From the NCBI GenBank assembly GCA_024644125.1, contig JAHELQ010000002.1:1-40508 (forward strand): a stretch of DNA of 40,508 bases, in the 5' to 3' direction. This DNA comes from Candidatus Aminicenantes bacterium. GTDB lineage: Bacteria; Acidobacteriota; Aminicenantia; UBA2199. This document shows positions 1 through 40,508 of this stretch, piece by piece. The translations under genes and the position numbers were made by a program. The notes beneath the pieces are model-generated. The model was not told the DNA's origin and did no database searches. It was given only the letters and a program-made list of their open reading frames with translations. Each line of letters opens with the position of its first letter. The stretch's first letter is position 1.

Positions 1-13
1 ACTGGGAGTCCGC

Positions 14-871: not shown

Positions 872-1302
872 ACCGATATCTTCAATCGGATGCCGAATTG
901 TGGGGCCGCTTGCGGTTTGCGACTAACCGAGGTCACGCGAAATGCGACCAAATAGCGGGGTTCTGGTGAAGCATACTCCTTAAGTTGCCGGCAGCAATAT
1001 TTTATCATTCGTGTTGGCAAACACCCGTTTTTCTCTATCAACTGAAACATCGATAGAGGTGGTGATAATATTGAGACATCTGGATAGTAGTCCTGGATAA
1101 ACTGTAGCACTTCTGGAGGATCGACAGAAGTGCGACAAAAAAATGCATTAAATCTTACGTTCGCCATTATTGACAGGAGTAATAAAACCTGGCTATCTTT
1201 GCCTCCAGAAAATGCGAGTTGATAACCTTCAGGAGGCTCGTAACTCTTTAAAAGAGCGATTGCAACTGCAATTTTTTTTTCTAGAAGATCGGCTATTAGC
1301 AT
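781..1302 (-). CDS. PP-loop ATP pyrophosphatase / PAPS-reductase-like protein; 3' part doubtful (probably truncated or read-through beyond ~nt 920)
   Basis: PP-loop motif LAFSGGKDSQVLLL, followed by YCCRQLKE and a degenerate xxRxxSxSRK stretch that aligns with the CysH LKE...GLRREQSGSR region. The preferred start, ATG 1302 (MLIADLL), overlaps the upstream stop (ATGCTAA). The last ~45 codons overlap the OMP fragment ORF (781-871) and lie in GC-richer DNA. Confidence 0.5.
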   Translation of the reverse strand: MLIADLLEKKIAVAIALLKSYEPPEGYQLAFSGGKDSQVLLLLSIMANVRFNAFFCRTSVDPPEVLQFIQDYYPDVSILSPPLSMFQLIEKNGCLPTRMIKYCCRQLKEYASPEPRYLVAFRVTSVSRKPQAAPQFGIRLKISVWSTGGANMSSAIRVRIGCKINSTRCSFWG

Positions 1303-2120
1303 GATCGATATTTTGCATAGATAATTGCTGGTCGGGACCATTCCCTTTGAAATTGTTTCCACTCTTTGGTGGTAATGCCATCTATGTTTCTAAACAACAT
1401 CGCGGCTGGGAAAAAGCCTAAATTAAGAACATCAACCAAACGTATTTCAGCTTTTTCTATTGTGTCTTTTGGATACCCAATCAAGCAATAACACCTGAGT
1501 TTATGCCTATCAAATCCCGCATCTCGGAGTTTCCGACTTGCTAAAACAAGCGGTTCGTAGTCATCGGGAGTATCATAGGCAAAAAAGATTTGTGCTGGCT
1601 TCAGTTTTACAAGCAGATCAATATGCCAATCTCGTAGACGGGCGGCCTCAAGGCCGCCTGTAAATTGCGCTTTCTTTTTCTGGCCTTGCAACATTGCGAA
1701 AACCGCTCTTATATGATTTTCGCTACAAGCAAGGATATTGTCATCAAGCACGTTCCAGCCTGGTTGTATTTTCAATTCGCGGACAGTTTCGCCTTCACGT
1801 TGAGGTACAGAACAAAACCAACATCGGTTTGGACAGCCTCTTGATGTTATTGTATAACCTTCGCGCAGATATCGCCCAGGAATAAAATCGCTGCCCGCCA
1901 TTCCCGTCGCGGGACCTCCCATCTTGACCTTATTGGGGTAATATTTTCCCCACTGTTTAGCCAAACGCTCCGCTTTTGGCAAATCATATGAAAAAGTACA
2001 TGAGATATGGATCTCATCAAGGTGTGGTGGAAACATAGAGGGGGGCTCATCAAAAAAACAAAGATTGTCTGTAGGAGTGGCTTTTGTTTTACGAGGGAAT
2101 ACTCTTGCGATGGATGTCAT
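1296..2120 (-). CDS. Radical SAM enzyme with a short B12-binding-like N-terminal region
   Basis: CxxxCxxC cluster motif TSRGCPNRCWFCSV, which has the SRGCPxxCxFC flavour of class-B radical SAM enzymes. It is preceded by KMGGPATGMAG. The preferred start, ATG 2120, overlaps the upstream stop by one nt (TAATG). Confidence 0.75.
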   Translation of the reverse strand: MTSIARVFPRKTKATPTDNLCFFDEPPSMFPPHLDEIHISCTFSYDLPKAERLAKQWGKYYPNKVKMGGPATGMAGSDFIPGRYLREGYTITSRGCPNRCWFCSVPQREGETVRELKIQPGWNVLDDNILACSENHIRAVFAMLQGQKKKAQFTGGLEAARLRDWHIDLLVKLKPAQIFFAYDTPDDYEPLVLASRKLRDAGFDRHKLRCYCLIGYPKDTIEKAEIRLVDVLNLGFFPAAMLFRNIDGITTKEWKQFQREWSRPAIIYAKYRSC

Positions 2121-3430
2121 TAATGCCCCGCCCATCTTTTATTTTGTAGATAGTTTCTCCCTCTGTTCTGTATCTCGGCAGATTTTTGGAGGGGCTCTGA
2201 ATTGCTATATATAGTCATCGTCAAAAATCCTAGATATTGACTGAAAGTAATTATTTCCTCTCTGGCGTCACCATATATATCTTGGATGTATGGTTTGGGC
2301 GAATCCAATCGAACAATGGGTTTGATGGGTTTGGGATTCCCGCTATTGTATTGGCAAATTGTGGATCGATAGATTATCTCATCAACACCAACTCCGTCCC
2401 AATCGACAACACCATCAAGTTTTATCTCCTTGATTAGTTGCCCCCCTTTCGAATTGTGGAGGTGAGGGCATTTCATACCTCTCCCAGGTAGCTTGTAATA
2501 GACAAACATCTCTTTTCCTGGGTGTTTCTCTGAGATATCGGCGGCAAATCCTGCATGAGCATGAAACGTGGTTTTGCAATTGCAGAAGTGAGTAAGCACA
2601 TTGCCTAAGTTGTCAGTCAAATAACCGCCCCATGGCGGTTGCTCAAAATGCATGAAAACCTCTAAACCTGCAACGTCCGGTCGGATATCAGAGATATAAA
2701 CTCCGTCTGCATGATTCCATTGTTGTTTGCCATGAAGGCCTTGAAATCCTGACTTACCGAACCGATAAACACCAAGAAATGCTTCATCCTTTCCATCTTG
2801 GTTAATATCTGCTATTTCGAAACGGTGCGCACTGGATAAACCAATGCCTGGAGGCTCATGAAAAAAGAAGACAGTATTCCAGGCTTGGTTTTCGTATCGA
2901 TATGCGACAACATATCTGTGTTGGTCCTTTTGGTGCCCACTGCCATAAACAACATAAGGATGCTCATCGAAATAAGCTATTCCAATTGTTTTGTAGCGCA
3001 AGGTCGGAGTTTTGCTATAGGAAGTACTTGGAACTGGGACCTTGGCAAGAACCTTTTTTGCAGTTGGGTCATATGCATAAAGATAATACTGCCCTTTCTT
3101 GGTATTGTAGCGAATCCCGACAAGCTCCTCTTTTCCATCTTCGTTGATATCCCAAAGGGTCGCCGGAATCCGAAGTAAAACTTCGGATTCCTTCATATCG
3201 ATATCAGCAACTGTTGCGCCTGAATGGGAAAGCACACGACAATGGACCGTCGTCTCTCCGGTTAGAATAAGAAAATCAGTCTTACCATCACCGTCAATAT
3301 CACCAGGCTTCACCATTGCATTCCCTGTTTTGGCAATGTAATGATAGCGTTTTAAAATATTCTGGTTGCCCAACAGGCTTACTGTTAAAACTAGGATTAA
3401 CGGAACAATAAACCGCATTTTATTCTCCAT
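2120..3430 (-). CDS. Secreted FG-GAP/VCBS-type beta-propeller repeat protein
   Basis: N-terminal signal peptide MRFIVPLILVLTVSLLG. Repeated Ca-binding DxDxDG motifs are present (GDIDGDGKTD, WDINEDGKEE, ADINQDGKDE). The gene is tightly packed in the late operon. Confidence 0.7.
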   Translation of the reverse strand: MENKMRFIVPLILVLTVSLLGNQNILKRYHYIAKTGNAMVKPGDIDGDGKTDFLILTGETTVHCRVLSHSGATVADIDMKESEVLLRIPATLWDINEDGKEELVGIRYNTKKGQYYLYAYDPTAKKVLAKVPVPSTSYSKTPTLRYKTIGIAYFDEHPYVVYGSGHQKDQHRYVVAYRYENQAWNTVFFFHEPPGIGLSSAHRFEIADINQDGKDEAFLGVYRFGKSGFQGLHGKQQWNHADGVYISDIRPDVAGLEVFMHFEQPPWGGYLTDNLGNVLTHFCNCKTTFHAHAGFAADISEKHPGKEMFVYYKLPGRGMKCPHLHNSKGGQLIKEIKLDGVVDWDGVGVDEIIYRSTICQYNSGNPKPIKPIVRLDSPKPYIQDIYGDAREEIITFSQYLGFLTMTIYSNSEPLQKSAEIQNRGRNYLQNKRWAGH

Positions 3431-26847: not shown

Positions 26848-27822
26848 TTACGCCACCATTAAAGTCCTTTCAGCGGCAACAAGATCATCAAGTGTAAGGT
26901 CTCTCCCTTCCTGCTGGACCATATTTATTGCGGTCCGCAAGATCGCCGCCATTGTGCGATAATGCCCTTCACCCTCGGCTTTCTTTTTGAGGAAAGCTAC
27001 TACATCCTTTTGAGCGGTTGTTTTTATTGACTCCAACATCATGTTGATATCCATAGCCTCGACCTCATTTTTTAGCACACACCGCATCAGTTCGCGACTC
27101 CTAATTTGTTGGTAACGGCTCGCGTATTTCCCCGATGTCTGGTTAAGCAATTCCTCTGATCCACAGAAAACACATGGAACGTTGCATTCATCCGAAAGTT
27201 CACGGCAGGCTTCAAGCCCCTGATAACGCAGTTTGTGTGCTTCGTCTACCAAGATCATCGCATCAGTACCAGCGAGCATTTTATGGAGGAGGCGTTCCAT
27301 TTTTTTCTTGCCCCCCTGAATCCCTTTGTGCTCCTTGTATTCGTCCCAATCTTTTTCTGTAATTTCGGTAAAGATATCCTCCAAAATGTCATATTTTCCA
27401 TACCCAGTCTTGGCGGTCACAAGAAAAACTGATTCATTGCTGTCTCTAAAGTGCCGTAGAGTAGTAGTTTTTCCAAGTCCGGCACCTCCAATTATTTTCC
27501 CGAGACTCCGGTGGACTCGCGCATAGGTTAATACGGCGAGAGCTTGCCGGCTTTGATGTGTCTTTAGATATTCAAAATTGAGAAAAGCTGTTTCCTGGGC
27601 AAACCTCAACTGCAGGAATTTCCCAACTTTTTTCCCCAATGTTTCAGAATCTCCATTATATTTTCCCAAAAGCCATTGACTTAAGGCTGCTGGGGATACA
27701 CTCATCGCCTGAGCAATTTTCGATTGTGACCAGTTCTTATTTCTTTTTTGGAAGTTTTTTAAAGCTTCCTTTGCCGTGTTGTCATTGAGAGAATTATTCA
27801 ACATCATTTCGAAATCCTCCAT
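26848..27822 (-). CDS. MuB-like AAA+ transposition ATPase
   Basis: N-terminal HTH (WSQSKIAQAMSVSPAALSQWLLGKYNGD), Walker A GGAGLGKTT and Walker B MILVDEAH. It lies immediately downstream of the transposase. Confidence 0.85.
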   Translation of the reverse strand: MEDFEMMLNNSLNDNTAKEALKNFQKRNKNWSQSKIAQAMSVSPAALSQWLLGKYNGDSETLGKKVGKFLQLRFAQETAFLNFEYLKTHQSRQALAVLTYARVHRSLGKIIGGAGLGKTTTLRHFRDSNESVFLVTAKTGYGKYDILEDIFTEITEKDWDEYKEHKGIQGGKKKMERLLHKMLAGTDAMILVDEAHKLRYQGLEACRELSDECNVPCVFCGSEELLNQTSGKYASRYQQIRSRELMRCVLKNEVEAMDINMMLESIKTTAQKDVVAFLKKKAEGEGHYRTMAAILRTAINMVQQEGRDLTLDDLVAAERTLMVA

Positions 27823-27825
27823 TAT

Positions 27826-29763
27826 TTAAAATTCCGAGAGATGGTTGATCCACCGCTCATATATATCATCTGCTTTAGAATTCTTTTCTGTTTGTGTTTC
27901 TGCATCTGCAAGAGCATCAATAACCTGTGCCGCTCTTGCATCGGCTTTCTTTTGCTGTTCAACCCGCTTTTGTTCTTCGGCTACTATCGCCGCATACTTT
28001 GTACCCACAACTTTTTCGATCATACCCGGCTCCTGGAAATCAGGAATTCCCCGGGAGAATATCAATGCTTCCCTCTGCTCATTGGTCAACTTTTTCGCGT
28101 CATCCAACCAGGGCCTTACCGAATCCTTGAGTACCTTTTTGAGTCTCATCTGCCGTTTATACTCATCAGGATTTGCGCGCCAATGGGCGATTTGACGTTG
28201 TTCCGCAACACCTATATATTTGCCCTTCAGATCAAACAGAAATATTTTCGAAAGATCGTCTTCCGAATATCGTATGAAAACTTTTTCCCCAAGAAGTTTG
28301 AACTGAACTTGATCATTCCAATAGCGCGTGTCAAAGGCTTTGATTCCGTCCCTCTCCACTGTTAGTGGTTTCATATATTTCGAAGTAAGAAGGACAAGTT
28401 CTTCCTCTTTGACAGCTCGCTTTTCTTTCATGAGAGAAAAAAACACCTGGTTGGGAGTCCGTTTTTCCATGCCTTTTCCACGATGCTCCCTTTTTTCGTT
28501 ATAGTAATGATCTACCCAAACATGGATAGCTTCTTTAATATATTCATATGAATGCACCTTTTTCTTTCTGATTTTCTTCTCAAGACCATCGGGGCGTTCC
28601 AGGTAGTTTTTTCCCCGATAACCTGAAAAATAACACGCGAATTCTGTCCGAAATGTCTTGAAAAACCTCTCCACGGTCTTACTTTTGGCATTGTAGGGGA
28701 TTGCCCATGAAGTTTCAATTCCTAGCGTTTCGTATAGGCCTTGGACCTTGATCGCCTCTTTTTTCCCGAGGATTTGTATTTTCTCCTCTCCACCGCGAAA
28801 ATGCTTACATCGATAGTCCTTCCCATTATCCAAGTGCACCATCTCAGGTACACCATATTGAAGGATTGCTTGGCGGAGAGAAATATTAATGGTGTCGCTG
28901 TTAGGCTTCTCCGAAAGAACCCAGGAAATTACTTTGCGACTCCTGACATCATACCAGACGGTTAGCCAGGGAAAACAAACCCGTTCTTCCCCTGTATCGA
29001 GATCACGTATCCGGCAAGCCACATCCACTTGATGATGGTCGGATTCAATAATCTCCATTACATTTACGCTCGTTACATCCCGTTCTATTGATGGGACGCA
29101 AGTATCTTCAAAAACTTTTTTCCCTTCCCTGGCGGCTACTTTCACCGGTTTGGGGATTGCCCGGATGTACCGCCGCCACGTCTCAAATGATCCAACCTTC
29201 CACCCTTTGATTTCGGCGGCTCGGAGGATTTCATTATAAGCAAGCTTCAGCGTCCATCTGTTGCCGTGCAGATACAACCTTCTACCATATTCCAGAGCTT
29301 CTTCCGAAAACACTTCAAACGATGGCCGATTACTTTTCCATCCCGGAAGTAACCCTTTCATCCCATAATCCCGATAGGCTTTTTGCCAGCGAAACAGCGT
29401 AGCCCGGTTTGCGTCAATCCCGGATTCCTGGAGAAATTCGGAAATAACAACGCTTTTCCCTGCCCCTTTCTCCTCGGCGTACCTCGCCCACTCTTGGAGA
29501 ACACTGAACCGGTATTCCGCGATCTTGCGTTTTTTCTCTGTCACATGTGCCGCTTCCTGGACTTCTTTCCGCTGTGTTTCTTCGTATTTTTTTTTTAGTT
29601 CACCACTTAAAGAGGATAGGGCTATTATAAATCTTTCTTTCCCCTTCCTTTGTCTTTTGTCTACTTGTGCTATATACTTATTTGCCTTTATCTTTTTATG
29701 TACAGCTTTTTTCGAAATTCCTTCAAGTTCTGCAACTTCCCGAACAGGGATCCAGATTTCCAT
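27826..29763 (-). CDS. MuA-like DDE transposase
   Basis: N-terminal winged-HTH (VREVAELEGISKKAVHKKI). The DDE triad is IIESDHHQVD (D242), VHLDNGKDY (D312) and TVERFFKTF (E365). The spacings of 70 and 53 aa compare with 67 and 56 in MuA. There is a Mu-transposase C-terminal-like region (ERDGIKAFDTRYWND). Confidence 0.9.
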   Translation of the reverse strand: MEIWIPVREVAELEGISKKAVHKKIKANKYIAQVDKRQRKGKERFIIALSSLSGELKKKYEETQRKEVQEAAHVTEKKRKIAEYRFSVLQEWARYAEEKGAGKSVVISEFLQESGIDANRATLFRWQKAYRDYGMKGLLPGWKSNRPSFEVFSEEALEYGRRLYLHGNRWTLKLAYNEILRAAEIKGWKVGSFETWRRYIRAIPKPVKVAAREGKKVFEDTCVPSIERDVTSVNVMEIIESDHHQVDVACRIRDLDTGEERVCFPWLTVWYDVRSRKVISWVLSEKPNSDTINISLRQAILQYGVPEMVHLDNGKDYRCKHFRGGEEKIQILGKKEAIKVQGLYETLGIETSWAIPYNAKSKTVERFFKTFRTEFACYFSGYRGKNYLERPDGLEKKIRKKKVHSYEYIKEAIHVWVDHYYNEKREHRGKGMEKRTPNQVFFSLMKEKRAVKEEELVLLTSKYMKPLTVERDGIKAFDTRYWNDQVQFKLLGEKVFIRYSEDDLSKIFLFDLKGKYIGVAEQRQIAHWRANPDEYKRQMRLKKVLKDSVRPWLDDAKKLTNEQREALIFSRGIPDFQEPGMIEKVVGTKYAAIVAEEQKRVEQQKKADARAAQVIDALADAETQTEKNSKADDIYERWINHLSEF

Positions 29764-30320
29764 TATTTGCTCCTCGGGATCGATAAGATTTCTATTTTTC
29801 CGCCGACATAACAGTCATACTTTATTGCACATTCGATTGCCTTTTTTATTCTGTCTGTTGTAATAATTTTGCTGTCTCTTAGAGCTTCCAATGCTCCATA
29901 AGCATATTCAGACCCTGAGCCTATGCACACCCAATCAGCATACTCAACTAGATTACAATTTCGTTCAATGTGCCACAAGCTCTTGCGAAATGCTAATACC
30001 ATTGAGTTTATCTCCCACTCACCCTCAATGCCCATTCCATTTTGTTTGAATACATCAATCATGCGTGGAATAAATATTCTAACTAAATATTCACGAGTAC
30101 TATATCCAAATGGCATTTTCGGTAAAACAAAATTACTTTCAACAATAGTTTTTTGCCTTGTACTACCTACGCAACCAATAACCATCTCTTTTCCGCATAT
30201 TGTTTTCTTTTTAAATATTTTTTTATGGTCTGTGGTCGAGATAAAAGAGCCGGCAGTCAGTTGAGAATCTGCCCCAACATATATATTTCCTTCATCTATA
30301 TATCCAACTACAACACTCAT
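29763..30320 (-). CDS. HslV / proteasome-beta-like Ntn hydrolase with an N-terminal Ser in place of Thr
   Basis: Aligns by eye along its whole length to E. coli HslV. MSVVVGYIDEGNIYVGADSQLTAG matches [23 protein letters not shown]; HKKIF matches VKKV; VIGCVGS matches IAGFAGG; IGSGSEYAYGALEAL matches IGSGGPYAQAAARAL. Confidence 0.8.
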   Translation of the reverse strand: MSVVVGYIDEGNIYVGADSQLTAGSFISTTDHKKIFKKKTICGKEMVIGCVGSTRQKTIVESNFVLPKMPFGYSTREYLVRIFIPRMIDVFKQNGMGIEGEWEINSMVLAFRKSLWHIERNCNLVEYADWVCIGSGSEYAYGALEALRDSKIITTDRIKKAIECAIKYDCYVGGKIEILSIPRSK

Positions 30321-32464: not shown

Positions 32465-32671
32465 TTAACTCGCATTTACGGCCACCGCAAGAATCGCAAT
32501 CTCTCGGTCAACATATTCCGAATCTCGATGGCCATTTATTACCCTCGACACCCATTCGGGCCTTCGATTGATCCGCGCAGCGAAGTCCCTTTGGCTTATG
32601 CCATTTCGCAACAATACATATTTACTAAATGCTGCTTTTTGTTTTCTAAGGTCAATTTGTTGAACTTTCAT
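32465..32671 (-). CDS. Cro/Ner-like small HTH regulator, first gene of the early operon
   Basis: 68 aa with HTH ISQRDFAARINRRPEWVSRVINGH. It is divergent from the repressor gene, and its ATG lies 6 nt after a -10 box. Confidence 0.6.
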   Translation of the reverse strand: MKVQQIDLRKQKAAFSKYVLLRNGISQRDFAARINRRPEWVSRVINGHRDSEYVDREIAILAVAVNAS

Positions 32672-32685
32672 GTTACAATAGTAAC
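32672..32685. promoter_or_regulatory. Operator candidate 1: perfect palindrome GTTAC-AATA-GTAAC
   Basis: Read directly from the sequence. It covers the -10 box and predicted start site of the early promoter. Confidence 0.5.
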
Positions 32686-32706
32686 ATCGTTGCCTTGTTT
32701 TGTCAA
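32678..32706 (-). promoter_or_regulatory. Early promoter (sigma70-like): TTGACA-17 nt-TACTAT, then 6 nt to the ATG
   Basis: The reverse complement of 32669-32706 reads TTGACAaaacaaggcaacgatgtTACTATtgtaacATG. The -35 is a consensus match, the spacing is ideal, and no room is left for an SD sequence. The transcript is therefore probably leaderless. Confidence 0.6.
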
Positions 32707-32738: not shown

Positions 32739-33158
32739 GTGAATAAAGAAGATCAAATTAATGTTGGCCTTAGATTTAAAGAAATAAGAAAGACGCTTAA
32801 TCTTGGGCAAAGTGAACTTGCAAATATAGCCGGTGTTTCGCGCTCCCTCCTGTCTTTATGCGAGAATGGTACAAAAACCCCGAGTTACCAACTATTGGTG
32901 GCTCTGGCAACAAAGTTAAACATAGATATCAACTGGCTTATTTCTGGCAACGGTGACATGTTTACGGGGCCAAAGATAGATTATGGTGCACTTACCGATG
33001 AGATGCAAGATATGTTTTTTCATATTGAACACATCCCCGAACTTCGGCTACATATTCTTGAAGAATTTCTACATTTCAAAATAAGAAATAAGGAGAAAAT
33101 AGAGAAACAGCTAAGCAAGGAACGTAAAGGAAAAGAAAAAGGGAGAATTGCCAGATGA
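32739..33158 (+). CDS. XRE/CI-type HTH repressor (prophage immunity repressor candidate)
   Basis: LRFKEIRKTLNLGQSELANIAGVSRSLLSLCENGTKTPSYQLLVALATKLNIDINWLISGNG is a classic HTH_3 / phage CI N-terminal domain. The start is GTG with no obvious SD sequence. The gene is divergent from the early operon, and it has no S24 peptidase domain. Confidence 0.8.
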   Translation: MNKEDQINVGLRFKEIRKTLNLGQSELANIAGVSRSLLSLCENGTKTPSYQLLVALATKLNIDINWLISGNGDMFTGPKIDYGALTDEMQDMFFHIEHIPELRLHILEEFLHFKIRNKEKIEKQLSKERKGKEKGRIAR

Positions 33159-33781
33159 ATGAAAGGGAAAGCTTTAAGGAAGAACTTCTAGATTTACTAA
33201 ATATTCCTGAAGTAGAAAAAATAATAATGATTTCGCTTGAACGCGCGAAATTTTCTTGCGCAACCGAAATTCAGACATACGTTGATTTAAAAAATCATTT
33301 TGTCCCAACAGCGGGTAAACGCTTAATGATACTCGAAAATGCAAAGGAAATTGTATATCGTTTTGAAATAGAATTTCATGAGAATTGTTCTTCTGTTTCT
33401 AAGTTTGAGCCAGCACCACCACCAGGACAATCAATAACCGATATCATTGACAAAGACATCTTGAAAAGCATTACTGAGAAAGTCTCGGATCGTCAAAAAA
33501 TTCATAGCTTAAAAAATAAGAATAAGCACATTGAATTTGTTCGGTTCCCTAGTACTGCCTTTGGATCTATTCGTGATAGTATAGCGAAAAAGAGCAATCC
33601 AAACGATTGCATTACATTATCAATTGATCCACAAGCTGGAGAGTTTGAAGAAATGTTCTATTATATGAAGAAATTTCCACAATTGAAAGCAAGCTTATTT
33701 ACTCAATTCTACTACATGCTCCCTCACTTTGAGATTTCGCAAAGCGACAATACAGAAGATGTCAATGTCGAAATTATCTAA
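33155..33781 (+). CDS. Hypothetical 208-aa protein translationally coupled to the repressor
   Basis: Its ATG overlaps the repressor stop (ATGA at 33155-33158). The DNA is AT-rich. No motif I recognise. Confidence 0.6.
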   Translation: MNERESFKEELLDLLNIPEVEKIIMISLERAKFSCATEIQTYVDLKNHFVPTAGKRLMILENAKEIVYRFEIEFHENCSSVSKFEPAPPPGQSITDIIDKDILKSITEKVSDRQKIHSLKNKNKHIEFVRFPSTAFGSIRDSIAKKSNPNDCITLSIDPQAGEFEEMFYYMKKFPQLKASLFTQFYYMLPHFEISQSDNTEDVNVEII

Positions 33782-35615
33782 CACTCACGAATCTTGGATC
33801 AACTAAAAGCTTTTTATCCAAACGCTTAGCCTCATCAAATTGCGTTTTTGGGGAAGGAAAATCTTGACTGATATAATAGATTGTTTTGCCCTCCTTAGCG
33901 AGAGTGTGCAAGAATTCCATTAGGTTTTTTTCTAATTCCCTCGAAGTACCTTTGGCAAAATCGTCAATTATATACACGCGCTTTTCTTCGCTGAGTACTA
34001 ACGCGCCTATTGCTTTATCTAATAGTTCAGAATCTTTTTCCCGCAGAGACGCCCCAAAATAGCGCTCAAGATTAGACGTAAATGTCTTGAACTCTACCCC
34101 ACGGAGCTCTGATAGAAACTCAAAGAGAGTCTTAATATTTATCTCTTCAAGAATTTCTTTAACCCTATATTTTTTCAATAATGCGATCGAAGTTGACCAG
34201 ACTATTTGTGAGCTTTGTTTTTTCCACTTATCGCTAATGGCAAGAAAAAATATATACCCTTCTTTCCCATTGCTTTCATTTTCGAGAAAGCCTAATTTAG
34301 AATCAAAGCCAGTTAACTTATTGATTAATCTCCAGATTAAAGACATACTGATAACAAAATAGAACAAGCAAAAGGTCACGCCATATATCAAAAGCCCTGA
34401 AAGTTTACTTTTTGATCGATAAATATATTCATTGGTTTTTTGAAATAAGGCCTGTACGGGTTCATTTCTCCTAAAACGTTTTTCAATGTAGTATTCATGG
34501 AATTTAGTGCGAATTTCAAACACATAATCTAAATATGATAAGTATGAAGAATAACCCGTTCCTGATAATTCTGTCGCCATTTTAGATGCAAAAACCCAGG
34601 GAAATACACCTGCGTAAGAACGATGATATTTTACTATCCCTCTGAGAGATGCTACAAATTTTTCTTCAAGAATATCATTTCTTTTTTTTGTTTTTTTAAT
34701 ATAGCGGTCGGCCATTTCGCCCATTTTTTCCTGTATACCACTTTCACCTTTTTCCTTCATCTTCCGCAAAACTTCAAGCGCTTCGCGCTCAAATTTCATT
34801 GAATTGCTTATTTTTTGAATATTGATCGATTCTATATTTGGAAGTCCCCTAGCTTTAATTCGTACCAGATTTTTTGCAACACCCGGAATAATAATTACAC
34901 AAAAAAGAAATAACGCAAGTGATACATAGTAAGCATTCTTTTTCCAGCGAAAGATAAGCATCAGTAGAAATCCCAAAACATACATGAGGTTTACGACCAA
35001 GATAAATATCAGTATTACGATTAAATAATGTAAATATTCATTCCCAGTAAAACTTATTTTCTGAATTAATGGAACAATTATTGGTATAAAAGAAATTACT
35101 AAAAAAATAATATCCAATAAAACTAATCTGAAAAAAACTAGCAGTAGAATTGCGCTTTTCTTGCGTAGTAGCTCACAGAGATCGTTACTACCAATTGCCG
35201 TCAAGCCCATATACAACATTATAATACCGCCAAAAAACAAAAAGATTTCTGTGATATCTAGTCCAGAATTGAAAAGGTTTTTGCCTCGCGTCGCTTGAAA
35301 TACATCTACAGTTTCCTTTGTATTTATTTCAGACATCATTTGTTTATTTAGAATTGATTGTGAAAAGAACATTGCCAGGGGGGAGGGGCGCGACATAACA
35401 CGAAAACCATACGCCCCATATTGCTCATATGTAAAATATTTTTTGATCTTCAGCTCTTCAAACTGACAGAAATTTTTCTCCTTCTGAAGATAATCTTTCC
35501 AACTTTCCACCCCTGACCATGCGGAAAAAACTAGCATTATTGTGAATATAATAAATAGAATTCTATTTCTATAATTTACGAGCCTCCTTAATTCAAATTT
35601 AATAACGATTTTCAT
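33774..35615 (-). CDS. Multi-pass membrane protein: ABC-2-like permease region, seventh TM helix, then a C-terminal degenerate ABC-ATPase-like domain
   Basis: Topology is TM1, a ~90-aa loop, five closely spaced TM helices, a ~150-aa helical region, TM7, and a ~185-aa tail. The tail has a Walker-B/D-loop/H-loop-like string KRVYIIDDFAKGTSRELEKNLMEFLHTLAKEGKTIYYISQD. The Walker A position reads GYIFFLAISDKWKKQSS, with no glycine-rich loop. There is no LSGGQ signature. Confidence 0.7.
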   Translation of the reverse strand: MKIVIKFELRRLVNYRNRILFIIFTIMLVFSAWSGVESWKDYLQKEKNFCQFEELKIKKYFTYEQYGAYGFRVMSRPSPLAMFFSQSILNKQMMSEINTKETVDVFQATRGKNLFNSGLDITEIFLFFGGIIMLYMGLTAIGSNDLCELLRKKSAILLLVFFRLVLLDIIFLVISFIPIIVPLIQKISFTGNEYLHYLIVILIFILVVNLMYVLGFLLMLIFRWKKNAYYVSLALFLFCVIIIPGVAKNLVRIKARGLPNIESINIQKISNSMKFEREALEVLRKMKEKGESGIQEKMGEMADRYIKKTKKRNDILEEKFVASLRGIVKYHRSYAGVFPWVFASKMATELSGTGYSSYLSYLDYVFEIRTKFHEYYIEKRFRRNEPVQALFQKTNEYIYRSKSKLSGLLIYGVTFCLFYFVISMSLIWRLINKLTGFDSKLGFLENESNGKEGYIFFLAISDKWKKQSSQIVWSTSIALLKKYRVKEILEEINIKTLFEFLSELRGVEFKTFTSNLERYFGASLREKDSELLDKAIGALVLSEEKRVYIIDDFAKGTSRELEKNLMEFLHTLAKEGKTIYYISQDFPSPKTQFDEAKRLDKKLLVDPRFVSVR

Positions 35616-35624
35616 TTATTTATT

Positions 35625-36287
35625 CTAGTCCTGGCAGTTTTCTTCCGTTGAGATTTCAAGTATTTCTCTCCCAATGCGGGTAGCATAGTTGCCATACATT
35701 GTCGCATGAGACATTAACTCAACCAATTCCCACATTTTTGCTTTATCTGGTTTTTCATTTCTATTTAATGCGGCCTCAATTGCAGCGAGACACACAATAA
35801 TACTGTCTACATTTGCTATATTTTTGGCGTGGATCGCAATTATATCGCCTTGTACAAGTTTATTCTTCAATTCTGTCGCAATAACTGTATTCATGTTTTT
35901 CGCGCTTATAAAACCTTCATAGTCAAAGGCCAAAAACTTTTGGAGTCGCATTTCATTATATCCTATCTTTTCTCCAATTTGCTTCGCAGTTGAGTATAAT
36001 TCTCTTGCTTTTTTCATTTCAGTAATTGCAAGTAAGATATAATTTTTCATTGTTTGCTGGTCAAGCATTCTTAGTTCTGCTCGCTCATATTCGGCACATG
36101 CCAACATAATATATCCTTGTGATGAAAGAAAACGGGCTGCACCCTCGACTATGCTTTCATTCATGTCAACTTTTTCTGCCCCCGTCCGAAAGGGGCATAT
36201 AATATCATTCATTACCATTACTCCAGGCATTTGGAGTGCAAATATCAATATGCTAATTAAGACTATCGCGTTTTTTCGCGTATTCAT
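35625..36287 (-). CDS. Secreted or N-terminally anchored all-helical protein (220 aa), first gene of the cargo operon
   Basis: The preferred start is ATG 36287 (MNTRKNAIVLISILIFALQMPGVMV, a signal-like peptide), with a perfect AAGGAGG SD sequence 8 nt upstream. The longer ORF start at 36359 would overlap the predicted promoter. Confidence 0.65.
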   Translation of the reverse strand: MNTRKNAIVLISILIFALQMPGVMVMNDIICPFRTGAEKVDMNESIVEGAARFLSSQGYIMLACAEYERAELRMLDQQTMKNYILLAITEMKKARELYSTAKQIGEKIGYNEMRLQKFLAFDYEGFISAKNMNTVIATELKNKLVQGDIIAIHAKNIANVDSIIVCLAAIEAALNRNEKPDKAKMWELVELMSHATMYGNYATRIGREILEISTEENCQD

Positions 36288-36330
36288 TTTAATATCCTCC
36301 TTAGTAATTATCTTTATTCTACCTTTTGTT

Positions 36331-36359
36331 ATTTTAAGTAAATTCTCTTTTTCTTTCAA
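36331..36359 (-). promoter_or_regulatory. Sigma70-like promoter of the cargo operon: TTGAAA-17 nt-TAAAAT
   Basis: The reverse complement reads TTGAAAgaaaaagagaatttactTAAAAT, about 45 nt upstream of the SD sequence and ATG at 36287. Confidence 0.45.
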
Positions 36360-36804
36360 TGGGAAATTCTATTTTTTTTTTCCCACTTATTTGGGATATT
36401 ACATACAAGCGTGGGAACCATTCTAATGTTTATTTTTATCTCTATTTTTATTCTATTTTCTTTCTTAATGGGCTTTTTCGTTGGTTCCCATGCTACCCGC
36501 TTCCTAAAGACGTTCGATTTTAACATTACGGCTCCTTTTTCTTTCTCTGCCCTTTTTTCCGCGTTTTGTTTGTTTTTAACTTAGTTCCGCACCCCAAGAA
36601 GCCCCTTTCCTTTTTATTCCCCGATTTACCTTTTTATAGCTTGCGTTTGAACGGTTTTTAAAAGAGTTTTAATAGTCGCAATTCCTTTGACCTCCCGTCC
36701 ACCATTTTTCCACTATTCCCACACCCCGCAAATCCGCTTTATACCAATTGTTCCCCCAGATCACAAGCCCATTTTCAACCAATTTTATAAAGTATCATTC
36801 TATA

Positions 36805-39800
36805 TTACCCCCTATATGAAGACTGCCGGTAGAATTCCTGTTGGGGCGCCGGGGGGATCGTGTCGTGGATTTCCGTGACCTGCGCCGCGATATACCTGCT
36901 CAACGCCCGGAGGGTTTGGGTCTCGAAAATTTCCGCCAGAGGTATTTTTACCGAAAGCTCTTTATGTACCATGGCAAGCATGATTGTGGCCTTCAACGAA
37001 TGGCCGCCCAGGTGGAAAAAATTGCTGTCCATACCGATGCTCTCCGGCGAGACGGCCAATACTTCGGACCACATGGCCGCGAGCCTGCATTCCAGCTCGC
37101 TGCGGGGGGGGTCCGCCGGGCTGTCTAAAATATCGATGCGAGGTTCTGGTAACGCTTTCCGATCCACTTTGTTACTGGTATTGAGCGGGAGACTCTCCAA
37201 TTGCATAAAATAGGCGGGAATCATGCAATCGGGTAATTTCATTCCCAGATACTCCCGCAATTCCTGAGCCGGAACCGTAACCGCCGAGACAAAATAGGCG
37301 CAGAGATAACAATCGCCGTCATCCCGTTTCCGGTCCACAACCACCACTGCGGATATATCCTCACGGTTCAGGAGCAAGGACTCGATCTCCTGCAACTCGA
37401 TTCTGAAGCCGCGAATCTTGACCTGGGAATCCACCCTGCCCAGGAATTCCACATCGCCCTCTTCCAGGAACCGGGCCAGATCCCCGGTTTTGTAAACGAT
37501 GTCCCCCCCGGCAAACGGATGGGGGATAAATTTTTCCGCGGTCAGGTCCGGATTGTTCAGATACCCTCTCCCCAATCCCTTGCCTCCGATATACACTTCT
37601 CCAAAAACTCCAACGGGCGCCGGCCGTAACCGCCGGTCCAGAATATACACCGTGGTGTTGGAGATGGGTTTGCCGATGGGAATGGTGCCCGAGCGCCCAT
37701 CGACCTCATCCACCGGATAATAGGTCGCATACACCGCGCTTTCGGTAGGGCCGTACATATGAATGAGCCGTCCCTTGCCCAACCGTCCCAGCACCTTGCG
37801 GACATGAGTCGCCGATACCTTCTCGCCGCCGAATAAAATCTTGCGCACACAATCCAGACAGTCAATTTCATAATCGGCCAATACATTGAATAACGCTGTA
37901 GTGACTAAAAAGACAGACACGGCCTCTTTTTTCAAGGCGGCGGCGATATGACTCGCCGACTGGGCCTCGCTCTGCTTCGCCAGCACCAGCGCCGCGCCGT
38001 TGAGAAATGCTGCGAAAATGTCGAACACCGACCCGTCAAAGGCATAGTTGGACAATTGCAAGAGCCTGTCCCCCTCTCCAATATCAATATAATTGGTATT
38101 CCGGGCAATCCGGATGACATTGGCGTGAGTGATGAGAGTCCCTTTGGGCTTGCCTGTGGTGCCGGAAGTGTAAATCACATAGGCTAGATCCCCTGCGTCA
38201 CCGTGCGTCATGGAATTTCTGACGCGAAATACATCCGAGCATTCATCGAGATTGAAAACCTCAGCGGGAATATCGCCGTGAAGTTCGAAGGGGCGGCTAC
38301 TATGACCCAGTACCAGCGACACTCCACTGTCCCGCAACATAAAACCGGTCCGTTCCACCGGGAAATCCGGGTCCAGAGGCAAATAGGCGCCGCCGGCCCG
38401 CAAAATCGCCAGAATCGCGATCATCATGTCTATAGACCGGGGCAAACACACCGCCACTAACGAATCACTGCGCACGCCTTTGTTTCCCAGCACAACCGCC
38501 AATAATTCCACCCGCAGGAAGAGTTCGCTGTAGGTTAGTTGTATCCAGTCGCCGCGATCCCCCGCATCCAATGCGACACCGCTTATGGCCGCGCGGTCGG
38601 GAAACCGCGCCACAGTTTCGCCGAACAATTGTGAAATGGTCTTGTGGGCTGGGTAATCTGTCCGGGTTTGGTTGAACTCCTGGATGACACGAAACGTTTC
38701 CTCCTCGTCCATGAGTTCAGTCTCGTCCAGAAGAAGCAAATCAGATTCCGCTACCTGCCGGATGACATTCCGCAGATGACGGGCGAAGCGCAGGATAGTT
38801 CCGCGCTTGAACAGCCGGGTGCAATATTCCAATTGGAAGTGCACCCGCCCATCGGATTCTTCGACAAATATCGTGAGGTCGAATTTGGCGCTGACGCTTT
38901 CGCAATCAACCGGTTGCAGCCGGAGGCCTCGCATGGCGATATCCGGCCGCCTGTAATTTTGCACCACCATCACCACGTCGAACAATGGATTGCGGGAGGG
39001 ATCCCTCTCCAGTTTCAGTTGATCTACCAGAGCTTCGAATTGCACATCCTGGTTTTCGAAGGCCTTGATGCAACGGCCCTTCACCTCCGATAAAAACTCG
39101 TTGAACGGTAAATCTCCACGCGGAGAATTCCGCATCGCCAGCATATTGATGAACATTCCGATGATATGGTGCAAATCCGCGTGGGGCCGCCCCATAACAC
39201 CCGTCCCCAGCACGATATCCTCCTGCCCCGTATACTTGAAAAACACAAGATTCAGGACCGCCAGTAAGTTCATATACAGGGTTATACCGTACCTGTCCCC
39301 CAGCCGGCTGAAATGGTTTGCCAGCTCCGGTTCCAGACTGAAGCGGTAACTCTCCCCGTCGTGCCCCTGGATGTCCGGCCTGGGGAAATCCAGCGGCAAG
39401 TCGAGCTTTGGTATAACTCCGTCAAATTGCCCCAACCAATAATCCACCTGCCGGCGGATCCGCGGCGTGATGGAGTTTTGCCAGAGGGAAAAATCCCTGT
39501 ATTGGACCTTGAGGGGATCCAGGTCATCGCCATTGTAGAGGCGGGCCAATTCCTCGATAAAAACTGCCAGCGAGGTTCCGTCGCTGACAATATGATGAAT
39601 ATCGTAAATAAAAAGCCACCGTTCATTGGGCAAAAGAGCGAAGCCAGCCCTCAGGAGCGGGGCCTTCGCGAGGTCGAAGGGACGGACAAACCGGTCGATC
39701 ATTATCTGGATGTCCTCATCGCCAGCAGGCGGGGGCATCTGCCCCTCCGGCGATTGCCGCTCGTCGATCCATGTCCCGGGATTCGGGTGGTACCATTCGA

Positions 39801-40508
39801 TGGAGATGTCCACGTGCGGAGCCACCTTTTGAACAGGTTCTTGCCCAACGAATGCGAACGAGGTTCGCAGGGTTTCATGACGGGCGGTCAACGCTCGCAA
39901 GGCGTGCTTCCAACGGGGAAGATCGAGCTCCCCCTCACCTCTGTACACCACGGGAATGTTGTAACTCTGGCTAATGTTTTCGAATTGATCCAATATGAAC
40001 ATCCGCTTTTGGGCGGACGTTTGCGGGTAATATTCCCTTTTCTCCAGAGGCTGGATCCCCTGGTAGATATCCCGGCCGGAGGCGGCGATAAAACCGGACA
40101 ATCGGCGGATGGTGGGTTCCTTGAAGATCGCGGCCAACGGTACCTTGACATCGAATTCTTTATGAATGCGGGAAACCAGGACAGTCGCCTTCAACGAATG
40201 CCCCCCCAAATCGAAGAAGCTGTCGTCGATACCGATTACACGCTTCTCCAACTTCAGCACCTCTCCCCAGATCTCCTGCAATTTGCGGTCCGTCCAATGA
40301 CGGGGAGGCGCATAGGAAGCCTCCGATGTCACTTGCGGCTCAGGCAGCCGGCCGCGGTCGATTTTGCCATTGGCATTCAGAGGGAACTTTTCCAATTGGA
40401 CAAAAAAAGCGGGAATCATAAAATCGTGCAGATGGAAAGAGAGAAACTCCTTCAACGCCACAGTGTCCAATTGCGTCCGCGCCACAAAATAGGCGCACAA
40501 CGTCTTGT
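36805..40508 (-). CDS. Non-ribosomal peptide synthetase fragment: (A C-terminal end)-T-C-A-T, then the first ~10 residues of a further C domain followed by a stop
   Basis: Two T-domain motifs are present: FFDLGGHSLKAT and FFHLGGHSLKAT. C-domain motifs are YPQTSAQKRMF and HHIVSDGTS. A-domain motifs are LAYVIYTSGTTGKPKG, FDGSVFDIF, MYGPTES, GEVYIGGKGLGRGY, YKTGDLAR, KIRGFRIELQEIE and NKVDRKALP. The frame continues past the window edge (KTLCAYFV). The region is GC-rich. Confidence 0.9.
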   Translation of the reverse strand, partial: KTLCAYFVARTQLDTVALKEFLSFHLHDFMIPAFFVQLEKFPLNANGKIDRGRLPEPQVTSEASYAPPRHWTDRKLQEIWGEVLKLEKRVIGIDDSFFDLGGHSLKATVLVSRIHKEFDVKVPLAAIFKEPTIRRLSGFIAASGRDIYQGIQPLEKREYYPQTSAQKRMFILDQFENISQSYNIPVVYRGEGELDLPRWKHALRALTARHETLRTSFAFVGQEPVQKVAPHVDISIEWYHPNPGTWIDERQSPEGQMPPPAGDEDIQIMIDRFVRPFDLAKAPLLRAGFALLPNERWLFIYDIHHIVSDGTSLAVFIEELARLYNGDDLDPLKVQYRDFSLWQNSITPRIRRQVDYWLGQFDGVIPKLDLPLDFPRPDIQGHDGESYRFSLEPELANHFSRLGDRYGITLYMNLLAVLNLVFFKYTGQEDIVLGTGVMGRPHADLHHIIGMFINMLAMRNSPRGDLPFNEFLSEVKGRCIKAFENQDVQFEALVDQLKLERDPSRNPLFDVVMVVQNYRRPDIAMRGLRLQPVDCESVSAKFDLTIFVEESDGRVHFQLEYCTRLFKRGTILRFARHLRNVIRQVAESDLLLLDETELMDEEETFRVIQEFNQTRTDYPAHKTISQLFGETVARFPDRAAISGVALDAGDRGDWIQLTYSELFLRVELLAVVLGNKGVRSDSLVAVCLPRSIDMMIAILAILRAGGAYLPLDPDFPVERTGFMLRDSGVSLVLGHSSRPFELHGDIPAEVFNLDECSDVFRVRNSMTHGDAGDLAYVIYTSGTTGKPKGTLITHANVIRIARNTNYIDIGEGDRLLQLSNYAFDGSVFDIFAAFLNGAALVLAKQSEAQSASHIAAALKKEAVSVFLVTTALFNVLADYEIDCLDCVRKILFGGEKVSATHVRKVLGRLGKGRLIHMYGPTESAVYATYYPVDEVDGRSGTIPIGKPISNTTVYILDRRLRPAPVGVFGEVYIGGKGLGRGYLNNPDLTAEKFIPHPFAGGDIVYKTGDLARFLEEGDVEFLGRVDSQVKIRGFRIELQEIESLLLNREDISAVVVVDRKRDDGDCYLCAYFVSAVTVPAQELREYLGMKLPDCMIPAYFMQLESLPLNTSNKVDRKALPEPRIDILDSPADPPRSELECRLAAMWSEVLAVSPESIGMDSNFFHLGGHSLKATIMLAMVHKELSVKIPLAEIFETQTLRALSRYIAAQVTEIHDTIPPAPQQEFYRQSSYRG

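What the first reader, a model, noticed from the sequence alone, without database searches (positions are those of the whole stretch)
33774..36359. AT-rich two-gene cargo operon between the repressor and the phage end: candidate lysogen-expressed membrane system
This block is noticeably more AT-rich than the rest of the phage. It has its own sigma70-like promoter (TTGAAA-17-TAAAAT) and a perfect SD sequence, so it need not depend on the phage early or late programme. It encodes a 220-aa signal-peptide-bearing helical protein and a 613-aa seven-TM protein. The permease-like core of the latter is followed by an ABC-ATPase-like domain. That domain keeps Walker B, D-loop and H-loop-like residues but has lost the glycine-rich Walker A and the LSGGQ signature, so it is probably non-hydrolytic. 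The position next to the immunity repressor at the c-end is where lambda keeps rexAB and where many prophages keep superinfection-exclusion or defence morons. I do not recognise this gene pair as a named system.
Basis: partly seen in the sequence, partly recalled or inferred. Interest (0 to 1): 0.75.

Follow-up and report, generated by a model that had tools for sequence, protein, structure and literature searches.

The report
Dead ABC half-transporter module in prophage
Next to the repressor of a Mu-like prophage lies an unnamed gene module, widespread in environmental bacteria, that encodes an ABC-type membrane protein with a permanently inactivated ATPase domain and an exported partner protein, so it probably changes the cell envelope rather than transporting anything.

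Summary
Window 33774..36359 (minus strand) is a two-gene operon. Its GC is 0.343, against 0.426±0.015 for the phage body. It has a TTGAAA-17-TAAAAT promoter-like site and an AAGGAGG ribosome-binding site.

- **gA** (220 aa) carries a Sec-type signal peptide.
- **gB** (613 aa) is a type V (ABC-2/ABCA-like) half-transporter. The AlphaFold model has pLDDT 92 and its best PDB fold matches are ABCA1/3/4/7. It has six TM helices, not seven.
- **gB C-terminal domain** is homologous to ABC ATPase domains. It lacks Walker A, LSGGQ and the H-loop histidine, and so do all relatives examined.

The pair is not an orphan. An exhaustive search found 710 representative clusters, every name retrieved being "hypothetical" or generic. 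gA lies directly upstream of gB in 27 of the 28 other loci readable on that side.

The conserved unit is larger than reported. In most loci with a fused gB, the pair converges on an Xre repressor of one family plus a partner, gC, that shares the repressor's C-terminal helical domain (SinR/SinI-like). In the window this repressor sits at the phage c position.

Related Mu-like phages lack the pair, so it is cargo. Its function is not shown. My best guess is a regulated, non-transporting envelope complex used for exclusion or defence. Lysogen expression was not tested.

The parts
36331..36359 (-). Sigma70-like promoter candidate TTGAAA-17-TAAAAT in front of gA
   Evidence: 10 of 12 positions match. 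Promoter-like sites in this region are no more frequent than in shuffles.
36296..36302 (-). AAGGAGG ribosome-binding site, 8 nt before the gA ATG
   Evidence: Read directly.
35625..36287 (-). gA: a 220-aa exported protein. It has a Sec-type signal peptide (about residues 1-24), a conserved LND-type mature N-terminus and a conserved FGNYAT motif near the C-terminus. It matches no known family.
   Evidence: Pfam, PHROGs, PADLOC and PDB give no significant hits. A gA homologue lies directly upstream of gB in 27 of the 28 other loci readable on that side.
34311..35615 (-). gB transmembrane part (residues 1-435). It begins with an N-terminal elbow helix and has six TM helices of the type V / ABC-2 fold. 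Two extracytoplasmic regions are predicted: residues 38-120, and a long helical region at about 251-405.
   Evidence: Pfam ABC2_membrane_2 scores 30 bits against a cut-off of 27.2. The AlphaFold model has pLDDT 92. Foldseek best matches are ABCA1/3/4/7 halves. Topology is inferred from the positive-inside rule.
33777..34274 (-). gB C-terminal pseudo-nucleotide-binding domain (residues about 448-613). It has the ABC ATPase fold but lacks Walker A, the LSGGQ signature and the H-loop His.
   Evidence: Profile searches against the PDB are led by ABC NBDs (nearly all the matches), with best E-values of 7.8e-5 and 2.5e-4. Motifs were read. Of 125 long family members, none has LSGGQ.
33155..33781 (+). 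gC: a 208-aa protein co-transcribed with the repressor (ATGA start/stop overlap). It carries the repressor's C-terminal helix-Pro-helix motif at its N-terminus, and again near its C-terminus. Its 3' end overlaps the 3' end of gB by 8 bp.
   Evidence: hhalign gives 93.8% probability, E 1.7e-7. Homologues occupy the same position in at least 12 loci.
32739..33158 (+). Xre/434-cI-type HTH repressor (139 aa) with a C-terminal helical extension. It sits at the c position of the Mu-like phage, and its family accompanies gA-gB outside phages.
   Evidence: Family members lie within about 1 kb of gB in most fused-type loci.
32670..32687 (.). Perfect palindrome ATGTTACAATAGTAACAT in the 68-bp gap between the repressor gene and the ner-like gene. 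It is a candidate operator.
   Evidence: It is not repeated near the gA promoter.
33594..33610 (-). Terminator-like hairpin plus T-run downstream of gB, lying antisense inside gC
   Evidence: Terminator-like sites are no more frequent than in shuffles.
36673..36681 (-). TTGCGACTA, present in inverted orientation at 917..925 near the other phage end. It may be a transposase-binding site and would place gA-gB inside the phage ends.
   Evidence: It is a single 9-mer, so the evidence is weak.

Best explanation
**What it is (shown).** The block is an accessory two-gene operon inside the repressor end of a Mu-like transposable prophage.
- gB is a six-TM half-transporter of the type V (ABC-2/ABCA-like) fold. 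Its fused C-terminal ATPase domain is catalytically dead in the window protein and in all relatives examined.
- gA is a Sec-exported partner of about 195 aa that is almost always encoded directly upstream.
- Together with the convergent operon, which encodes an Xre repressor plus gC, the pair forms a four-gene module that moves between genomes as an AT-rich unit.

**How it most likely works (inferred).**
- gB dimerises as half-transporters do. One relative locus has two tandem gB genes.
- gB presents about 240 residues of mostly helical extracytoplasmic structure, on which gA docks.
- Because it cannot hydrolyse ATP, the complex does not pump. It acts as a static or conformationally gated envelope device.
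- In the prophage it is a moron. Its most probable benefit is to alter the envelope of the carrier cell so that superinfecting phages, or other agents that attack the envelope, are excluded.
- Expression is set by the module's own regulators. The repressor and gC share an oligomerisation motif, as SinR and SinI do. The two operons converge with overlapping 3' ends, so each transcript can interfere with the other.
For: **Fold and domains.** Pfam ABC2_membrane_2 scores above its cut-off. The AlphaFold model built on 146 homologues has pLDDT 92 and pTM 0.91. Foldseek's best matches are ABCA1/7/4/3 halves, E 5e-6, TMq 0.37-0.44.

**Dead ATPase domain.**
- Two independent profiles lead with ABC NBDs, which make up nearly all their PDB matches. 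These include the ATPases of ABC-2 systems: Wzt, TagH/TarH, NosF and Rv1218c.
- Walker A, LSGGQ and the H-loop His are absent.
- Of 125 long homologues, none has LSGGQ.
- The split-gene forms are dead as well.
- Only one distinct locus has an intact ABC ATPase within 5 kb.

**Conservation.** There are 710 representative clusters with E<=1e-3. gA lies directly upstream of gB in 27 of the 28 other loci readable on that side. All gA homologues have signal peptides.

**Module.** The HTH family and gC recur next to the fused forms. The shared motif gives hhalign 93.8% probability. The HTH domain resembles 434 cI, ImmR and SinR.

**Cargo status.**
- The block's GC lies 5.5 sd below the phage body, and the module is more AT-rich than its flanks in 7 of 7 other loci.
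- Related Mu-like phages L117 and L118 lack the pair.
- Two further phage contexts carry it: L002, a Mu-like element, and L021, an IMG/VR contig.

**Regulated output.** In split-type loci, sigma54-type promoters precede the operon, and a kinase plus an NtrC-type regulator lie adjacent.

**Dimer.** L031 carries tandem gB paralogues.
Against: - There is no functional or expression data of any kind.
- gA, gB and gC hit no PADLOC model and no PHROG at a meaningful E-value.
- Most loci are not in recognisable phages.
- Association with two-component systems, BacA and an M48 peptidase fits a housekeeping envelope-stress role as well as it fits defence.
- The promoter match is not above chance for this AT-rich DNA.
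- The host is unknown, so sigma70 rules may not apply.
- Convergent transcription from the repressor operon could dampen gB-gA in the lysogen rather than allow it.
- The gA-gB interaction and gB dimerisation were not modelled.
Confidence: 0.4

Rival explanations
1. General envelope-stress or antimicrobial-immunity device. On this view the gA-gB complex protects or remodels the envelope against peptides, bacteriocins or lipid stress, and the prophage merely carries it as a lysogenic-conversion trait unrelated to phages.
For: - ABC-2 systems are the classic bacteriocin and lantibiotic immunity transporters (established knowledge).
- Split-type loci sit beside a histidine kinase and an NtrC-type regulator, with sigma54-type promoters on the operon. 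BacA and an M48 peptidase are neighbours.
- Most loci are chromosomal.
Against: - Immunity by ABC-2 systems works by ATP-driven export, and this family has no working ATPase.
- The module is more AT-rich than its flanks and has a patchy distribution across phyla, which fits a mobile accessory trait.
Confidence: 0.25
2. Membrane sensor that feeds the lysogeny switch. On this view gA and gB sense an extracytoplasmic cue, and the pseudo-NBD passes it to the repressor/gC pair by sequestration or release. Prophage maintenance or induction would then respond to the envelope state.
For: - The repressor at the phage c position belongs to the family that always travels with fused-type gB.
- gC shares its oligomerisation motif.
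- Among loci with enough flank, fused-type ones nearly always carry HTH and/or gC (18 of 20 by my hand tally), and split-type ones never do.
- In the dead NBD, the best conserved parts are the Walker B/D-loop region, which forms the NBD-NBD contact in canonical ABC transporters (established knowledge), and the signature helix.
- There is precedent for ABC transporters acting as co-sensors, in the Bce-type systems and MalK-MalT (established knowledge).
Against: - The shared motif is absent from gA and gB.
- There is no evidence of contact between the pseudo-NBD and HTH or gC.
- In split-type loci the operon looks like an output of the regulators, because it has sigma54 promoters.
- The fused-form/HTH association may only reflect shared ancestry.
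Confidence: 0.15
3. Ordinary ABC-2 transporter that borrows an intact ATPase encoded elsewhere in the host, or pairs with a host half-transporter.
For: - The fold is that of a transporter.
- One distinct locus has an intact ABC ATPase 2.4 kb away (L011 and its near-duplicate L024).
Against: - The position where an ATPase would dock is already occupied by a fused dead NBD, or by one encoded as an adjacent gene.
- No intact ATPase is conserved nearby in about 27 loci.
- Both tandem paralogues in L031 are dead.
Confidence: 0.05
4. Decaying remnant of an ABC transporter with no current function.
For: The catalytic motifs are lost.
Against: - The ORFs are full-length.
- The window protein retains every near-invariant family residue.
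- The model is confident.
- The family has 710 clusters that share the same degenerate motifs and the same partner gene, which indicates purifying selection on a non-catalytic role.
Confidence: 0.03

Closest known systems
Type V ABC exporters (ABC-2 family): ABCA half-transporters, and Wzm/Wzt, TarGH, NosFY and PmtCD-type systems
   Same: - Six-TM fold with an N-terminal elbow helix and the TMD-then-NBD order, as in ABCA halves. These are the best Foldseek matches.
- A Pfam ABC2_membrane_2 hit.
- The C-terminal domain is most similar to the ATPases of ABC-2 systems.
   Different: - Walker A, LSGGQ and the H-loop His are lost across the family, so ATP-driven transport is not expected.
- There is an obligatory exported helical partner, gA.
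- A long helical extracytoplasmic insertion lies between TM5 and TM6.
- Dedicated Xre/gC regulators, or a kinase plus a sigma54 regulator, accompany the genes.
Lambda rexAB and other prophage exclusion morons encoded beside the repressor (sieA/sieB, Sie2009, Ltp)
   Same: - The position next to the immunity repressor at a prophage end.
- Membrane or exported products.
- AT-rich cargo with its own promoter candidate.
   Different: - There is no sequence or fold relationship. PADLOC gives no hit, and no bacteriophage protein in the viral structure library resembles gB: the matches are giant-virus ABC transporters and weak, low-TM hits to phage ATPases.
- rexAB is co-transcribed with cI, whereas gA-gB converges on the repressor operon.
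- The module is mostly found outside phages.
SinR/SinI (and SlrR/SlrA) repressor-antagonist pairs
   Same: - An Xre-type HTH with a C-terminal helical oligomerisation domain.
- An adjacent gene whose product shares that domain but has no recognisable DNA-binding domain.
- A weak NCBIfam SlrR hit.
   Different: - gC is much larger, at 208 aa, and carries the motif twice around an unknown central domain.
- gC lies downstream of the repressor gene and is translationally coupled to it.
- Heteromer formation was not tested.
Bce-type sensory ABC transporters with their two-component systems
   Same: An ABC-type membrane complex encoded beside the regulators that control it. This raises the possibility that the complex is both sensor and output.
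   Different: - BceAB has the FtsX/MacB-type fold with an active ATPase, and signals to an intramembrane-sensing kinase.
- Here the ATPase is dead, and the neighbouring kinases appear cytoplasmic.

Membership tests
ABC-2 / type V ABC transporter permease (Pfam PF12679 ABC2_membrane_2) | Sequence match to the family model above its curated cut-off | tested here: met
   The score is 30 bits against a cut-off of 27.2, E 4e-7. In addition, 25 of 61 homologues match at E<=0.1.
ABC-2 / type V ABC transporter permease (Pfam PF12679 ABC2_membrane_2) | Six-TM type V fold with the N- and C-termini in the cytoplasm | tested here: met
   The AlphaFold model has pLDDT 92. The best PDB fold matches are ABCA1/7/4/3.
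Functional ABC transporter (any type) | NBD with Walker A GxxGxGK[ST], the LSGGQ signature, a Walker B Asp-Glu pair and the H-loop His | tested here: not met
   - The domain is homologous to NBDs.
- The Walker A region is replaced, LSGGQ is replaced, and the H-loop His is Gln or variable.
- Of 125 homologues, none has LSGGQ.
Functional ABC transporter (any type) | An intact ATPase partner encoded with the permease | tested here: not met
   There is none in the window. Only L011 and L024 have an intact ABC ATPase within 5 kb.
DUF3526 (PF12040) ABC-2-associated domain | Match above the gathering score | tested here: inconclusive
   The score is 22 bits against a cut-off of 25, E 2.9e-4, over residues 325-399. 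Only 3 of 61 homologues match.
Known anti-phage defence systems (PADLOC-DB v2.0.0) | A match of any component to a defence-system model | tested here: not met
   gA, gB and gC give no hit at E<=1. Only the HTH protein matches, and only generic regulator models.
Prophage moron / accessory cargo | Deviant composition, absence from related phages, and presence in unrelated contexts | tested here: met
   - The GC lies 5.5 sd below the phage body.
- The pair is absent from the related Mu-like phages L117 and L118.
- It is present in non-phage loci.
Prophage moron / accessory cargo | Expression from its own promoter in the lysogen | not testable with these tools
   Only a consensus promoter match is available.
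Mu-like transposable prophage (context) | MuA DDE transposase, a MuB-like AAA+ protein, a divergent repressor/ner arrangement, and Mu-type head genes | tested here: met
   The ner-like ORF is at 32465..32671, 68 bp from the repressor gene start.
SinR/SinI-type repressor-antagonist pair | An Xre HTH plus a helical oligomerisation domain that is shared with an adjacent protein lacking an HTH | tested here: met
   See (the HTH resembles SinR, 434 cI and ImmR; shared motif, probability 93.8%, E 1.7e-7).
SinR/SinI-type repressor-antagonist pair | Heteromer formation that antagonises DNA binding | not testable with these tools
   No multimer modelling or experiment was available.

The most novel reading that the evidence does not exclude
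The four genes form a new kind of membrane-to-repressor switch. A catalytically dead ABC half-transporter and its exported partner would sense the state of the envelope. Through the pseudo-ATPase domain, they would control a SinR/SinI-like repressor/antagonist pair that doubles as the immunity repressor of a transposable phage. This would give the prophage an extracytoplasmic input to the decision between lysogeny and induction.
Probability: 0.12. Interest if true: 0.85.

Novelty: new variant of a known kind. Interest (0 to 1): 0.62.

Why it matters
ABC transporters are defined by ATP hydrolysis. Here at least 710 sequence clusters keep the whole transporter architecture after losing every catalytic motif, and nearly always keep an exported partner. 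That points to a conserved job for this fold that is not transport.

The family is unannotated, and in this study it was seen only in metagenomes and metagenome-assembled genomes (Aminicenantes, Acidobacteriota, Omnitrophota and others). Phages pick it up, and in this window it sits in the immunity region.

- **If it excludes phages**, it is a new envelope-level defence family that current defence catalogues miss.
- **If it signals to its repressor**, it is a new input to a lysogeny switch.

Either way the module is compact, at four genes and 3.6 kb, and could be cloned directly.

Tried and rejected
- **Word-indexed homologue searches.** With gB alone and with a 61-sequence profile, these returned only the window protein. 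The exhaustive search was needed.
- **Single-sequence AlphaFold of gB.** The model was useless, at pLDDT 37.6.
- **Alignment A3 as a locus query.** It was too divergent. A1 found nothing in viral contigs.
- **phmmer of gB against the PDB.** It gave only noise.
- **gA and gC.** Neither has a Pfam, PHROG, PADLOC or PDB relative. The gC/DUF7809 hit is sub-threshold and does not recur in homologues.
- **A repressor operator shared between the c/ner region and the gA promoter.** None was found, so direct control of gA by the repressor is not shown.
- **The HTH/gC motif in gA or gB.** It is absent.
- **Host identification through the flanking NRPS.** The best hits reach only 50% identity, in unrelated phyla.
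- **BLAST of the region against GenBank phages.** There was no match.
- **Rfam and tRNA scans.** Both were empty.
- **Literature searches.** Searches for DUF3526, for ABC-2 with prophage exclusion or anti-phage defence, and for fully degenerate bacterial NBDs found nothing relevant.
- **'Ordinary ABC transporter with a separate ATPase'.** Rejected.
- **'Seven-TM protein'.** Rejected.


Full report
**1. The observation**

The window holds a Mu-like transposable prophage on the minus strand. It encodes a MuA-type DDE transposase at 27826..29763 and a MuB-like AAA+ protein at 26848..27822. It also encodes terminase, portal, major head, tape-measure and baseplate proteins.

An Xre-type repressor gene (32739..33158, +) diverges from a ner-like ORF (32465..32671, -), with 68 bp between their starts. 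Between this repressor and the GC-rich flank lie three genes:
- a 208-aa gene, here called gC (33155..33781, +);
- gB, 613 aa (33774..35615, -), convergent with gC;
- gA (35625..36287, -), 220 aa from the ATG.

The flank is a non-ribosomal peptide synthetase (NRPS) ORF ending at 36805 (GC 0.55).

Equal-sized windows in the phage body have GC 0.426±0.015, with a minimum of 0.386. The TTGAAA-17-TAAAAT site and the AAGGAGG ribosome-binding site are present. In DNA this AT-rich, however, promoter-like matches are as common as in shuffled sequence.

The 9-mer TTGCGACTA occurs in inverted orientation at 917 and 36681. This weakly suggests that the phage ends lie outside the block.

**2. What gB is**

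Pfam places gB in ABC2_membrane_2 above its cut-off, and it gives a sub-threshold DUF3526 hit. A word-indexed search of 5.8 billion proteins found nothing. An exhaustive HMMER search found 710 representative clusters with E<=1e-3, of which 130 had E<=1e-30. Most are 600-680 aa; a minority are about 445 aa.

An AlphaFold model built with 146 of these sequences is confident, at pLDDT 92 and pTM 0.91. The single-sequence model had been useless.

The model shows:
- an N-terminal elbow helix;
- six TM helices, because the two hydropathy peaks at 149-187 form one helix;
- an extracytoplasmic region at residues 38-120;
- a long helical extracytoplasmic region at about 251-405;
- a C-terminal alpha/beta domain.

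The best PDB fold matches are ABCA1, ABCA7, ABCA4 and ABCA3, with E down to 5e-6 and TMq 0.37-0.44. These are type V exporters with the same TMD-then-NBD order. No bacteriophage protein in the viral structure library resembles gB: the best matches are giant-virus ABC transporters, and the phage proteins listed are low-TM hits to other ATPases.

**3. The C-terminal domain**

Two independent profiles were searched against the PDB. One was built from 17 locus-derived sequences and the other from 61 database proteins. Both lead with ABC ATPase domains, which make up nearly all their matches, including the ATPases that serve ABC-2 permeases:
- MJ0796, Wzt, PsaB and HisP;
- a putative ABC transporter ATPase (PDB 1sgw), Wzt, TagH/TarH, NosF and Rv1218c.

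The alignments place each family motif against its canonical counterpart:

| Canonical NBD element | Family consensus |
|---|---|
| Walker A strand and P-loop | G..YF.LC.DE..RDK |
| LSGGQ..R | E..KK.Y.A |
| Walker B / D-loop | V.NDF.KG.SR.FE |
| H-loop | YLS.EM |

The window protein has IIDD at the Walker B position and Gln at the H-loop position. The longer subfamily (P0030, P0044) still shows GENGLIGQ where GPNGAGKST would be.

Of 125 homologues of at least 560 aa, none has an LSGGQ-type signature, and one has a chance Walker-A-like string. In the split-gene relatives the domain is a separate protein of about 230 aa, and it is equally degenerate.

Only one distinct locus, L011 with its near-duplicate L024, has an intact ABC ATPase within 5 kb. 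That ATPase is paired with another large gene. It applies to every relative examined, not just this protein.

**4. gA and the pair**

The word-indexed search gave gA one homologue. Its contig showed the same four-gene arrangement.

Thirty-three further loci carrying gB relatives were gathered by exact look-up and pattern scans. A gA homologue lies directly upstream of gB in 27 of the 28 of them that are readable on that side. That makes about 24 distinct sequences including the window. The exceptions are L026, which has no detectable gA, and L029, L023, L025 and L035, which are cut at or near a contig end.

All 17 aligned gA proteins have a basic and hydrophobic N-terminus ending in an AXA-like site. 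A conserved LND motif follows three or four residues later, and an FGNYAT motif lies near the C-terminus.

gA has no relative in Pfam, PHROGs, PADLOC or the PDB. Every source name retrieved for the family is "hypothetical protein", apart from one automatic "NatA ATPase" label.

**5. The unit is larger than the finding**

In most fused-type loci, gA-gB converges on an operon that encodes two proteins:
- an Xre HTH protein of the same family as the window's repressor;
- gC, or in some clades a short form of gC or an unrelated 108-aa protein.

Extra HTH paralogues often lie on the other side.

Only L002, a Mu-like element in a Clostridia MAG, shares further phage early genes with the window. The four genes therefore travel together independently of the phage.

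The HTH domain is of the 434-cI, ImmR and SinR type. Its C-terminal helix-Pro-helix extension recurs at the N-terminus of gC (hhalign probability 93.8%, E 1.7e-7). It recurs again near the C-terminus of gC. It is absent from gA and gB. This is the SinR/SinI logic: a repressor and a neighbour that share an oligomerisation element.

The convergent genes abut or overlap at their 3' ends in roughly half of these loci, by 8 bp in the window (coordinates). A terminator-like hairpin for gA-gB lies antisense inside gC. Each operon can therefore interfere with the other. This last point is inference.

**6. Other contexts**

- Split-type loci (permease of about 445 aa plus a dead NBD of about 230 aa) lack HTH and gC. 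Instead they sit beside a HisKA kinase, and in three of the four distinct loci checked also an NtrC-type sigma54 regulator.
- A TGGCAC-N5-TTGCT-type promoter precedes the operon in L030, L026 and L011/L024. In those loci the operon looks like a regulated output.
- L031 has two tandem gB paralogues around one gA, both dead. This fits dimeric assembly.
- L021 is an IMG/VR phage contig with gA-gB next to lysis and terminase genes.
- Two Mu-like phages whose MuA is 38% identical to the window's lack the pair.
- The module is more AT-rich than its flanks in 7 of 7 other loci.
- Named hosts are Aminicenantes, Acidobacteriota, Omnitrophota, Deferrimicrobium and a Clostridia MAG.

Together these points show a horizontally mobile accessory module that phages sometimes carry.

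**7. Mechanism**

*Shown:* the fold, the dead ATPase domain, the exported partner, the conserved synteny, the shared repressor/gC motif, and the cargo status.

*Inferred:*
- gB dimerises, and gA binds its extracytoplasmic helices.
- The complex cannot pump.
- The complex serves as a regulated envelope device.

I rank the possible functions as follows:

| Reading | Confidence |
|---|---|
| Exclusion or defence | 0.40 |
| General envelope protection | 0.25 |
| Sensor feeding the repressor | 0.15 |
| Transporter using a borrowed ATPase | 0.05 |
| Decaying remnant | 0.03 |

Exclusion ranks first because of the module's position in the phage immunity region, its mobility and its patchy distribution. 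Nothing here tests expression or phenotype. PADLOC does not know the genes, and no paper was found.

**8. Verdict**

It is a new variant within the ABC-2 superfamily: a half-transporter that is catalytically dead in every relative examined, with an obligatory exported partner and dedicated regulators. Its function is unknown. It merits experiments.

Noticed in passing
window 1..925 and 36805..40500: The two host flanks do not match each other. On the right, an NRPS ORF stops exactly where its next condensation domain should begin (…EFYRQSS then YRG*). On the left is the C-terminal part of a TonB-dependent-receptor-like outer-membrane barrel. tblastn finds no continuation of the NRPS on the left. 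The cause could be a transposition-linked rearrangement, or an assembly that joins different insertion sites of an actively transposing phage.
   Followed up: partly
window 29763..30320 (-): A 185-aa ORF immediately upstream of the MuA transposase gene matches the Pfam Proteasome subunit family (E 1.5e-8, above the cut-off). That is unusual in a phage early region.
   Followed up: no
window 781..2135 (-): At the opposite end of the prophage lie a PAPS-reductase-like ORF and a radical-SAM ORF (phrog_424 and phrog_9298). They form a second likely cargo block.
   Followed up: no
window 36356..36526 (-): A 56-aa, very basic ORF with a good AAGGAG site lies just upstream of the gA promoter. Several split-type relatives also have an unrelated-looking 56-66-aa ORF in front of gA (L007, L011, L015).
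   Followed up: no
L030 6174; L026 6844; L011 5853; L024 5751: Sigma54-type promoter motifs (TGGCAC-N5-TTGCT and near variants) precede the gA-gB operon in split-type loci. These loci sit next to a HisKA kinase and an NtrC-type regulator. The kinases appear to lack TM segments.
   Followed up: partly
L031 4206..8980: Two tandem gB paralogues (665 and 677 aa) flank a single gA, with HTH genes on both sides. Both C-terminal domains are degenerate. This suggests heterodimeric versions of the complex.
   Followed up: partly
L033 2580..7257; L034 9020..13697; L036 9035..12011: In these loci gC is followed not by the HTH gene but by large P-loop proteins (349 aa and 977 aa, or 654 aa) of unknown family.
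   Followed up: no
window 33774..33781 and equivalent positions in L004, L005, L012, L022: The stop-proximal ends of gB and of the convergent gC or HTH gene overlap by 8-35 bp. In several other loci they abut within 3 bp. No room is left for a terminator between the two operons.
   Followed up: partly
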